Of a stretch of 64,000 nt of DNA, positions 57,932 through 58,002 are shown piece by piece. Numbering within the stretch: position 1 is the stretch's first letter; each line of letters begins with the position of its first letter. Position numbers and translations under genes: made by a program. This DNA is from a virus (taxonomy: Duplodnaviria; Caudoviricetes), in IMG/VR virus record IMGVR_UViG_3300028805_000043. One strand, written 5' to 3'. A model generated the notes under the pieces. The model saw only the letters and a list, made by a program, of their open reading frames with translations, searched no databases and was not told where the DNA came from.

Positions 57932-58002
57932 TGATCCATGCAGGACTCGAACCCACCTCTACTGGTTTAGAATCAGTGGCACAACCTCTATACCAATGGA
58001 CC
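57932..58002 (-). tRNA. Amber suppressor-type tRNA (anticodon CUA)
   Basis: Acceptor GGTCCAT/ATGGATC, D arm GTAT/GTGC, anticodon arm ACTGA-TTCTAAA-CCAGT, T arm GTGGG-TTCGAGT-CCTGC, A73. Confidence 0.8.

What the first reader, a model, noticed from the sequence alone, without database searches (positions are those of the whole stretch)
57932..58002. CUA-anticodon tRNA of unclear aminoacyl identity
Seen: a full cloverleaf with a UU-CUA-AA loop, G1-C72, G2.U71, A73 and an A31.C39 mismatch. It is unlike the local tRNA-Gln and tRNA-Tyr acceptor stems, and it is the last tRNA before the amber leader. Inference: a possibly weak, tuned suppressor. The charged amino acid cannot be read from sequence.
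Basis: partly seen in the sequence, partly recalled or inferred. Interest (0 to 1): 0.72.

Follow-up and report, generated by a model that had tools for sequence, protein, structure and literature searches.

The report
Dedicated amber-suppressor tRNA in standard-code phage
This is a real, conserved UAG-reading tRNA in a large rumen phage that otherwise uses the normal genetic code; it appears to serve only two UAG codons placed just downstream of it, and it is always linked to one small tRNA-hydrolase-like gene.

Summary
Window 58002..57932 (minus strand) encodes a canonical cloverleaf tRNA with anticodon CUA, G1-C72, G2.U71, A73 and A31.C39.

It is one of a family of 12 distinct sequences. 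In that family 9 of 22 pairs show compensatory changes, G19-C56 swaps with A19-U56, and positions 31 and 39 never pair.

The 199.7-kb phage contig (60 tRNAs, 27% GC) uses the standard code. Portal, terminase and tail genes are intact, and TAG ends only 8 of 265 genes.

I found only two conserved in-frame TAGs, both downstream on the same strand. One is in a 13-codon leader (MKQFW-TAG-I..GFP-stop), present in all 15 family loci checked. The other is codon 35 of a PTH2-fold hydrolase gene.

Homologues of that hydrolase were fetched without regard to tRNAs. A stop-codon suppressor tRNA lies within about 2 kb in 48 of 52 huge-phage loci.

Every TAG-bearing copy with enough upstream sequence (27 of 27) has the CUA tRNA.

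The amino acid remains unresolved. Gln is my leading guess (about 45%), then Lys and Glu. No synthetase of the six Pfam families searched is in the contig.

Other agents of this scan had already noted the leader and the PTH2-like gene on this same window.

The parts
57932..58002 (-). Amber-suppressor tRNA, anticodon CUA; last gene of the 60-tRNA array
   Evidence: ARAGORN; Rfam tRNA 42.6 bits; 9 of 22 pairs with compensatory changes in 12 distinct homologues
57783..57824 (-). Leader ORF MKQFW-TAG-IFDLGFP-TAA; TAG at 57809..57807
   Evidence: Found in all 15 family loci, 79-148 nt after the tRNA, with TGGTAGATT invariant. Found again in most metagenome loci that hold the tRNA.
57243..57698 (-). 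Gene 1 of the downstream unit, 151 aa, no family match
   Evidence: ORF list; no Pfam, PHROGs or NCBIfam hit
56490..57197 (-). Gene 2, 235 aa, no family match
56108..56473 (-). Gene 3, 121 aa, no family match; its stop overlaps the start of the next gene
55768..56118 (-). PTH2-fold hydrolase gene, 116 codons, with in-frame TAG as codon 35 (56016..56014)
   Evidence: Translation; phrog_3668 'hydrolase' 1e-9 across the TAG; AF2 pLDDT 89.6, with the top 12 PDB hits made up of 11 PTH2-family chains (Foldseek prob 0.99-1.00, TM 0.53-0.64) and Atu0240, a protein of unknown function; ESM Atlas nearest clusters carry PF01981
55758..55783 (-). Intrinsic-terminator-like hairpin (10 bp) plus T run, ending the unit

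Best explanation
The gene encodes a functional amber-suppressor tRNA that the phage keeps for a small, private set of UAG codons, not to recode its genome. It is transcribed as the last member of the tRNA array. It is presumably processed, given CCA and charged by host enzymes. Once charged it competes with release factor 1 at two conserved W-UAG-A sites in the transcription unit directly downstream. The first site is in a 13-codon leader peptide. The second is codon 35 of a PTH2-fold hydrolase, in a surface loop where the inserted residue does not matter. Full-length hydrolase, and whatever the leader controls, would therefore be made only when mature, charged suppressor tRNA is present, and in proportion to it. 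The pairing of a PTH2-like hydrolase with a suppressor tRNA is much older and wider than the TAG gate, so the two products probably act together. The phage itself is nearly immune to its own suppressor. Shown here: the tRNA is real and under selection; the genome uses the standard code; the TAG sites are conserved; the tRNA and hydrolase are linked. Inferred: processing, charging, actual readthrough, the regulatory outcome, and the amino acid (my estimate: Gln about 45%, Lys about 25%, Glu about 10%, other or mixed about 20%).
For: 1. Real, selected tRNA. In 12 distinct family members 94.7% of cells pair, and 9 of 22 pairs change on both sides (1 of 500 shuffles reaches 9; none of the six slid structures shows any). 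G19-C56 occurs in 5 members and A19-U56 in 7. Positions 31 and 39 are unpaired in 12 of 12.

2. Standard code. Crude gene calls end in TAA 216, TGA 41, TAG 8. Reading TAG through barely raises ORF cover, 0.768 to 0.785. Portal, large terminase and tail genes are intact. Extensions after the TAG stops are 0-19 codons, apart from one case that runs into a separate gene.

3. Only client genes. A scan of unassigned gaps and of same-frame ORF pairs finds only the hydrolase. Three relatives carrying the same tRNA family were read whole (236, 163 and 410 kb); they are also standard-code and show no homology-supported TAG-interrupted gene. tblastn of this phage's proteins against the 52 loci found none either.

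4. TAG is maintained. TAG sits at the same codon in 12 IMG/VR loci and 52 of 76 metagenome loci. 51 of the 62 distinct sequences of one well-supported clade (99/99) carry it, over long branches. The synonymous-like change to CAA is seen once. Protein conservation continues after the TAG.

5. Linkage. A suppressor tRNA is the nearest tRNA to the hydrolase gene in 43 of 50 loci. One lies within 2.1 kb on the same strand in 48 of 52 loci, which hold 14 tRNAs on average and almost always a single suppressor (8 of these tRNAs were first seen only with ARAGORN at -ps90). All 27 TAG-bearing metagenome copies with at least 2 kb upstream have the CUA tRNA. All 11 IMG/VR contigs that match the tRNA pattern are contigs already found through the hydrolase.

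6. Leader. M-[KTR]-Q-[FHK]-W-TAG-I-x3-G-F-P-stop occurs in 15 of 15 loci. The context after TAG is A in 41 of 52 hydrolase copies, which favours suppression (own knowledge).
Against: There is no expression, processing, charging or readthrough data. The contig is estimated to be only about 70% complete, so further TAG-bearing genes or a synthetase could lie in the missing part. My gene calls are crude, and small TAG-interrupted genes without homologues would escape them. Some family members (the clades of L011/L013, L166/L168 and L133) keep the tRNA and mostly the leader while the hydrolase has a sense codon, so the hydrolase gate is dispensable. In L001 the site is TAA, which a CUA anticodon cannot read. 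A trans effect on host or competitor genes that end in TAG is not excluded and could be the main function. The Rfam score is the lowest in the array, and ARAGORN needs a relaxed threshold for 8 relatives.
Confidence: 0.62

Rival explanations
1. Evolutionary way-station to code 15. The suppressor was acquired by a low-GC phage that had already lost most TAG stops. The TAGs in the leader and hydrolase are simply the first sense TAGs to drift in and have no regulatory meaning.
For: This matches the path proposed by Borges et al. (10.1101/2021.08.26.457843): low GC, then TAG loss, then suppressor tRNA, then recoding. TAG is depleted against TGA in this genome, 8 against 41, binomial p 1e-6. Lak-like loci with the same hydrolase-suppressor pairing look TAG-recoded: ORF cover rises from 0.59-0.69 to 0.85-0.89 when TAG is read through.
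Against: Neutral sense TAGs should be scattered and should often be replaced by CAA. Instead TAG is fixed at one codon in 51 of 62 distinct sequences of a deep clade. The nine bases TGGTAGATT are invariant in the leader in 15 of 15 loci while neighbouring codons vary. No other gene in four genomes (about 1 Mb) carries an in-frame TAG. A distant homologue (L051, 39% identity) has TAG at the same alignment position.
Confidence: 0.15
2. The main target is in trans. The suppressor reads through host TAG stops, or those of competing phages, to disturb or reprogram them. The PTH2-like enzyme then clears the resulting peptidyl-tRNA or stalled-ribosome load. The cis TAGs only report suppressor activity.
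For: The phage is almost immune to amber suppression: 8 TAG stops with short extensions. The hydrolase has a peptidyl-tRNA-hydrolase fold. It travels with suppressors of several unrelated tRNA types and anticodons, CUA, UUA and UCA, class I and class II. The phage also carries a PrfH-type rescue factor.
Against: Nothing here bears on host genes, and the host is unknown. One low-scoring tRNA competing with RF1 may give only modest readthrough. This reading does not explain the invariant leader.
Confidence: 0.15
3. Non-decoding tRNA-like RNA, such as a decoy or sensor for a host anticodon nuclease, or a processing signal for the array, whose CUA anticodon is incidental.
For: It has the lowest tRNA score of the array and fits no isotype.
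Against: The anticodon CUA, U33 and A37 are invariant in the family. It co-occurs 27 of 27 with in-frame TAG in the hydrolase. All canonical tertiary positions are kept, with G19-C56 covariation.
Confidence: 0.05

Closest known systems
Suppressor tRNA(CUA) of code-15 phages (crAss-like and Lak; TAG read as Gln, validated by metaproteomics in PMC9523058)
   Same: A phage-encoded CUA tRNA in a low-GC, tRNA-rich phage whose host uses the standard code. It is presumably charged by a host synthetase. It shares the A31.C39 mismatch with the suppressor of Lak-like loci.
   Different: Here the genome is not recoded; structural genes carry no TAG. The acceptor end (G1-C72) lacks the U1-A72 of the local tRNA-Gln genes. 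The clients are two fixed codons next to the tRNA gene.
'Code change module' of Jade phages (suppressor tRNA + TrpRS + RF1 upstream of the lysis cassette; Borges et al., 10.1101/2021.08.26.457843)
   Same: A suppressor tRNA clustered with a translation-factor gene directly upstream of the genes whose in-frame stops it reads.
   Different: The partner here is a PTH2-fold hydrolase, not a synthetase or release factor. The stop is UAG, not UGA. The partner gene itself carries the stop. The downstream genes are of unknown function and no lysis genes were recognised.
Laboratory amber suppressors (E. coli supE and su7; own knowledge)
   Same: Anticodon CUA with U33 and A37, decoding UAG in competition with RF1.
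   Different: Those are single-base mutants of sense tRNAs with an obvious parent. This tRNA has no recognisable parent isotype and is a conserved wild-type gene.
Leader-peptide attenuation that senses charged tRNA (trpL, hisL; own knowledge).
   Same: A very short ORF whose translation outcome depends on the availability of one particular charged tRNA and lies ahead of the regulated genes.
   Different: The sensed tRNA is a suppressor encoded immediately upstream, and the decision is termination against readthrough at UAG. I did not test the RNA switch itself.

Membership tests
Canonical elongator tRNA | Cloverleaf that matches the tRNA covariance model above the gathering score | tested here: met
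   Rfam RF00005, 42.6 bits against 29, model positions 1-71; ARAGORN
Canonical elongator tRNA | Helices kept by compensatory change, and the G19-C56 tertiary pair | tested here: met
   9 of 22 pairs change on both sides; G19-C56 in 5 members and A19-U56 in 7
Amber-suppressor tRNA | Anticodon CUA in a 7-nt loop with U33 and a purine at 37 | tested here: met
   Loop UUCUAAA. C34 U35 A36, U33 and A37 are invariant in 12 homologues.
Amber-suppressor tRNA | In-frame UAG codons in functional genes that need it | tested here: met
   Hydrolase codon 35 and leader codon 6, conserved and co-occurring with the tRNA
Amber-suppressor tRNA | Processed, aminoacylated and active in readthrough | not testable with these tools
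   Needs tRNA sequencing or a Northern blot, an acid gel, and a reporter with mass spectrometry
tRNA-Pyl (ARAGORN's label) | Atypical architecture: 6-bp anticodon stem, 3-nt variable loop, short D loop, one base between acceptor and D stems, no G18G19 or T-psi-C (own knowledge) | tested here: not met
   Two bases at positions 8-9, a 7-nt D loop with GG, a 4-nt variable loop, and a TTCGA T loop. The label follows from the anticodon only.
tRNA-Pyl (ARAGORN's label) | A PylRS in the genome | tested here: not met
   No PF01409 match in the contig. That PylRS falls under PF01409 is from my own knowledge. The contig is about 70% complete.
tRNA-Gln-type suppressor (code 15) | tRNA-Gln acceptor identity, U1-A72, as in the phage's own Gln tRNAs | tested here: not met
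   G1-C72 in 11 of 12 family members and G1.U72 in one. The Gln tRNAs of these phages have U1-A72 in 29 of 32.
tRNA-Gln-type suppressor (code 15) | Body features shared with the local tRNA-Gln | tested here: inconclusive
   A31.C39 occurs in 12 of 32 Gln tRNAs against 13 of 629 others (odds ratio 28, p 6e-11). A 4-nt variable loop and A73 are also shared. The isotype HMM nevertheless ranks Gln third, at 18.3 bits.
tRNA-Gln-type suppressor (code 15) | Genome-wide sense use of TAG at Gln positions | tested here: not met
   Standard code in four genomes. One nested homologue (L145) has CAA at the site.
PTH2 peptidyl-tRNA hydrolase (the linked gene) | Match to Pfam PF01981 | tested here: not met
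   No Pfam hit at E up to 1. No six-frame PF01981 hit at E up to 10.
PTH2 peptidyl-tRNA hydrolase (the linked gene) | PTH2 fold | tested here: met
   AF2 pLDDT 89.6. Foldseek finds 2zv3, 3erj, 1wn2, 1xty, 1rlk and 1q7s at prob 0.99-1.00 and TM 0.53-0.64. The nearest ESM Atlas clusters carry PF01981 in 21-70% of members.
PTH2 peptidyl-tRNA hydrolase (the linked gene) | Catalytic residues and peptidyl-tRNA hydrolase activity | not tested

The most novel reading that the evidence does not exclude
The suppressor tRNA and the PTH2-like hydrolase form a self-contained control loop, widespread in huge phages. The hydrolase would act on the suppressor tRNA itself, deacylating it or releasing peptide from it. 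In this clade its synthesis needs that same tRNA, which would give a feedback that sets how much UAG readthrough the infected cell performs. The loop would work whichever amino acid the tRNA carries.
Probability: 0.2. Interest if true: 0.9.

Novelty: new variant of a known kind. Interest (0 to 1): 0.72.

Why it matters
Suppressor tRNAs in phages that still use the standard code have been treated as leftovers, or as first steps towards recoding. This family shows a different use: one tRNA and two fixed UAG codons beside it, conserved across many rumen phage contigs. That would be a natural, compact, orthogonal amber-suppression switch.

Across huge phages, including Lak-like ones, PTH2-like genes are almost always linked to suppressor tRNAs, whatever the tRNA type or anticodon. 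I found no paper describing this link. It points to an unrecognised protein partner of stop-codon suppression.

There is also a practical warning. Public protein sets translate this gene with Q at the TAG, so alignments seem to 'prove' glutamine when they do not.

Tried and rejected
1. Reading the amino acid from homologue alignments. The 'Q' column in database proteins turned out to be TAG translated under code 15. True sense replacements are Q, N, Y, E and D.

2. Parent isotype by nearest neighbour among about 750 tRNAs, and by my own isotype HMMs. No reliable assignment.

3. Inferring the amino acid from recoded relatives. Three whole relatives with the same tRNA family are not recoded. Lak-like loci align too weakly, at about 26% identity.

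4. TGA recoding. The 35 apparent TGA read-through frames are antisense shadows of real genes.

5. A second readthrough at a TAG between two small genes (window 17966-18334). The downstream gene stands alone in a relative, so these are two genes.

6. A cognate synthetase. No PF00749, PF00152, PF00579, PF00587 or PF01409 match in the contig. No CCA-adding enzyme either.

7. Cultured-phage relatives of the tRNA. None was informative.

8. An HDV-like or theta ribozyme after the tRNA. No Rfam hit, and the 3' trailer is not conserved.

IMG/VR and metagenome loci were used instead.

Full report
**What is there**

The window is bases 32001-96000 of a single 199,701-bp virus contig with 26.8% GC. IMG/VR classes it as a provirus and CheckV puts it at about 70% complete. 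ARAGORN finds 60 tRNA genes, all on the minus strand, in one 19-kb array.

The last of these, window 58002..57932 (minus strand), has anticodon CUA. Rfam's tRNA model scores it at 42.6 bits over the full model; this is above the gathering score of 29 but the lowest score in the array.

It also has a 4-nt variable loop, a 7-nt D loop with GG, a normal T loop and no encoded CCA. ARAGORN's 'Pyl' label rests on the anticodon only. The architecture is that of an ordinary elongator tRNA, and the contig has no PF01409 match.

**Is it a working gene?**

Homologues of this tRNA occur in 14 IMG/VR loci. Eight of them needed a relaxed ARAGORN threshold to be called.

I counted the canonical cloverleaf on 12 distinct sequences:
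- 94.7% of cells pair.
- 9 of 22 pairs change on both sides. One of 500 shuffles reaches that number, and no slid structure shows any such pair.
- The tertiary pair switches between G19-C56 (5 sequences) and A19-U56 (7).
- Positions 31 and 39 never pair in any of the 12 (A.C, C.C or C.A).

The mismatch is therefore a selected trait of the family, not damage.

**The genome uses the standard code**

- Stop-to-stop ORF cover is 0.768 under the standard code and 0.785 with TAG read through.
- Of 265 crude gene calls, 216 end in TAA, 41 in TGA and 8 in TAG. TAG is depleted relative to TGA (p 1e-6).
- The portal, large terminase and tail genes lie in the window and are intact.
- Apparent TGA read-through frames are antisense shadows.
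- After the eight TAG stops the next in-frame stop comes within 0-19 codons. The one exception runs into a separate gene.

**The only TAG clients**

Three scans (same-frame ORF pairs, upstream TAGs and unassigned gaps) leave one gene interrupted by TAG. It lies at window 56118..55768 (minus strand) and has 116 codons, with TAG as codon 35.
- It matches phrog_3668 'hydrolase' across the TAG.
- It folds with pLDDT 89.6.
- Eleven of its 12 best PDB matches are PTH2-family chains (MJ0051, AF2095, PH1539, the Sulfolobus enzyme, TA0108, human Bit1), at Foldseek prob 0.99-1.00 and TM 0.53-0.64. The remaining one is Atu0240, a protein of unknown function.
- Pfam's PF01981 does not match. The nearest ESM Atlas clusters do carry that family.
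- The TAG falls in the loop after helix 1, where model confidence dips.

The second client is the 13-codon ORF that starts 107 nt after the tRNA, MKQFW-TAG-IFDLGFP-stop.

The whole unit runs on one strand: tRNA, leader, three genes of unknown function, the hydrolase, then a strong terminator-like hairpin.

**Relatives**

I searched IMG/VR with the hydrolase alignment alone and got 52 huge-phage loci.
- The codon at the site is TAG in 12 loci, TAA in one and a sense codon in the rest.
- The 'Q' that database proteins show at this position is therefore a code-15 translation, not evidence for glutamine.
- A stop-codon suppressor tRNA lies on the same strand within 2.1 kb in 48 of the 52 loci. It is CUA in most, UUA in the Lak-like loci and UCA in one.
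- It is the nearest tRNA to the hydrolase in 43 of the 50 loci that hold any tRNA. These loci average 14 tRNAs and almost always hold a single suppressor.
- In the window's clade the tRNA sits 0.6-2.1 kb upstream. In distant clades it sits 12-700 nt downstream of the hydrolase in most loci (up to 1.7 kb) and belongs to unrelated tRNA types, some with long variable arms.

A search of metagenome contigs added 80 loci.
- 52 of the 76 with the motif have TAG at the same codon.
- All 27 TAG-bearing copies with at least 2 kb of upstream sequence have the CUA tRNA, and nearly all also have the leader.
- The context is TGG-TAG-A in 38 of the 52.

On a maximum-likelihood tree, 51 of the 62 distinct sequences of one 99/99-supported clade carry the TAG. 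A few nested lineages have lost it.

The leader is present in 15 of 15 family loci, and TGGTAGATT is invariant there while the tRNA's 3' trailer is not conserved.

A pattern for the tRNA found 11 IMG/VR contigs, all already found through the hydrolase.

Three relatives with the same tRNA family were read whole. All are standard-code and have no homology-supported TAG-interrupted gene.

**Amino acid**

No synthetase of the Glu/Gln, Tyr/Trp, Asp/Asn/Lys, class IIa or Phe/Pyl families is in the contig. Charging must therefore fall to the host. The host probably belongs to Bacteroidota, because genes in all four genomes lack Shine-Dalgarno signals. That link between missing Shine-Dalgarno signals and Bacteroidota is from my own knowledge.

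For Gln:
- A31.C39 occurs in 12 of 32 tRNA-Gln genes of these phages against 13 of 629 other sense tRNAs.
- The 4-nt variable loop and A73 are shared with the local Gln tRNAs.
- In published phage surveys TAG is reassigned only to Gln.
- One homologue nested in the TAG clade (L145) has swapped the CUA tRNA for a UCA tRNA and carries CAA at the site.

Against Gln:
- The family has G1-C72, whereas the Gln tRNAs have U1-A72 in 29 of 32.
- There is no G3-C70.
- My isotype HMMs place the tRNA nowhere: the top score is Thr at 28.1 bits, in a range where accuracy is about 40%.

By E. coli rules (own knowledge), U35 with A73 also suits LysRS, and a Glu-type charging is conceivable.

Other losses of the TAG put N, Y, E or D at the site, so the residue is not constrained.

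My estimate is Gln about 45%, Lys about 25%, Glu about 10% and other about 20%.

**Reading**

The best-supported account is a dedicated suppressor. Its conserved job is to read two UAG codons in the unit it heads. This makes the leader's outcome and full-length hydrolase depend on mature, charged suppressor tRNA.

The hydrolase-suppressor partnership is the deeper, wider feature; the TAG gate is a clade-level addition.

Whether the tRNA also acts on host TAG stops is open, as is what the hydrolase does to tRNA.

I found no paper describing the hydrolase link. Theta-ribozyme work reports mixed predicted isotypes for phage suppressors: 69% Gln, then Trp, Ile and Tyr (PMC10879173).

**Relation to earlier notes of this scan**

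After I had found the TAG-interrupted gene myself, the index showed that the same window's leader (e1-5681990), the PTH2-like gene (e1-5681989) and the overall circuit (e1-5681985) had already been noted. This report adds the tRNA family analysis, the genome-wide and cross-genome TAG census, the cross-phage linkage counts and the identity tests.

Noticed in passing
L061:1438-2055 (-), = G000:C1 about 127.9-128.5 kb, outside the window: A 205-aa GGQ protein that passes NCBIfam's PrfH (release factor H) equivalog cut-off, 174.5 bits against 166.65. No RtcB partner is in the contig.
   Followed up: partly
L115 (ONIZ01000001.1, 410,106 bp): A contig filed as 'uncultured Firmicutes bacterium RUG343' has the same length as IMG/VR UViG_2799112330_000002 and carries the same suppressor tRNA pattern. 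It looks like a huge phage binned as a bacterial genome.
   Followed up: no
L151:537, L152:1407, L162:108: Some metagenome relatives carry a second suppressor-like tRNA with anticodon UUA, 250-490 nt upstream of the CUA tRNA.
   Followed up: no
L145:3001-3351 and tRNA at 3376: A hydrolase nested in the TAG clade has CAA (Gln) at the site. A UCA-anticodon tRNA follows it, and there is no CUA tRNA or leader in the 3 kb upstream. L010 is its sister.
   Followed up: partly
L051:65-313, tRNA at 371: A distant homologue (39% identity) has TAG at the same alignment position, with a CUA tRNA 58 nt downstream. This may be an independent origin of the gate.
   Followed up: no
L001:10001-10345: The site is TAA rather than TAG, although the CUA tRNA is identical to that of L004. 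The gene may be broken, or there may be a sequence variant.
   Followed up: no
window 62439-62840 (-): Five tRNA-Lys genes lie in a row, and there are seven in the window. Such multiplicity is seen where hosts attack tRNA-Lys (own knowledge).
   Followed up: no
window 58196-58270 (-) and 60339-60415 (-): Sub-threshold tRNA-like matches (21.9 and 23.3 bits) lie between true tRNA genes.
   Followed up: no
G000-G003, gene starts: There is no Shine-Dalgarno enrichment upstream of genes (2-5% against 4-8% background). Leaders are A-rich, which fits a Bacteroidota-type host rather than Firmicutes.
   Followed up: partly
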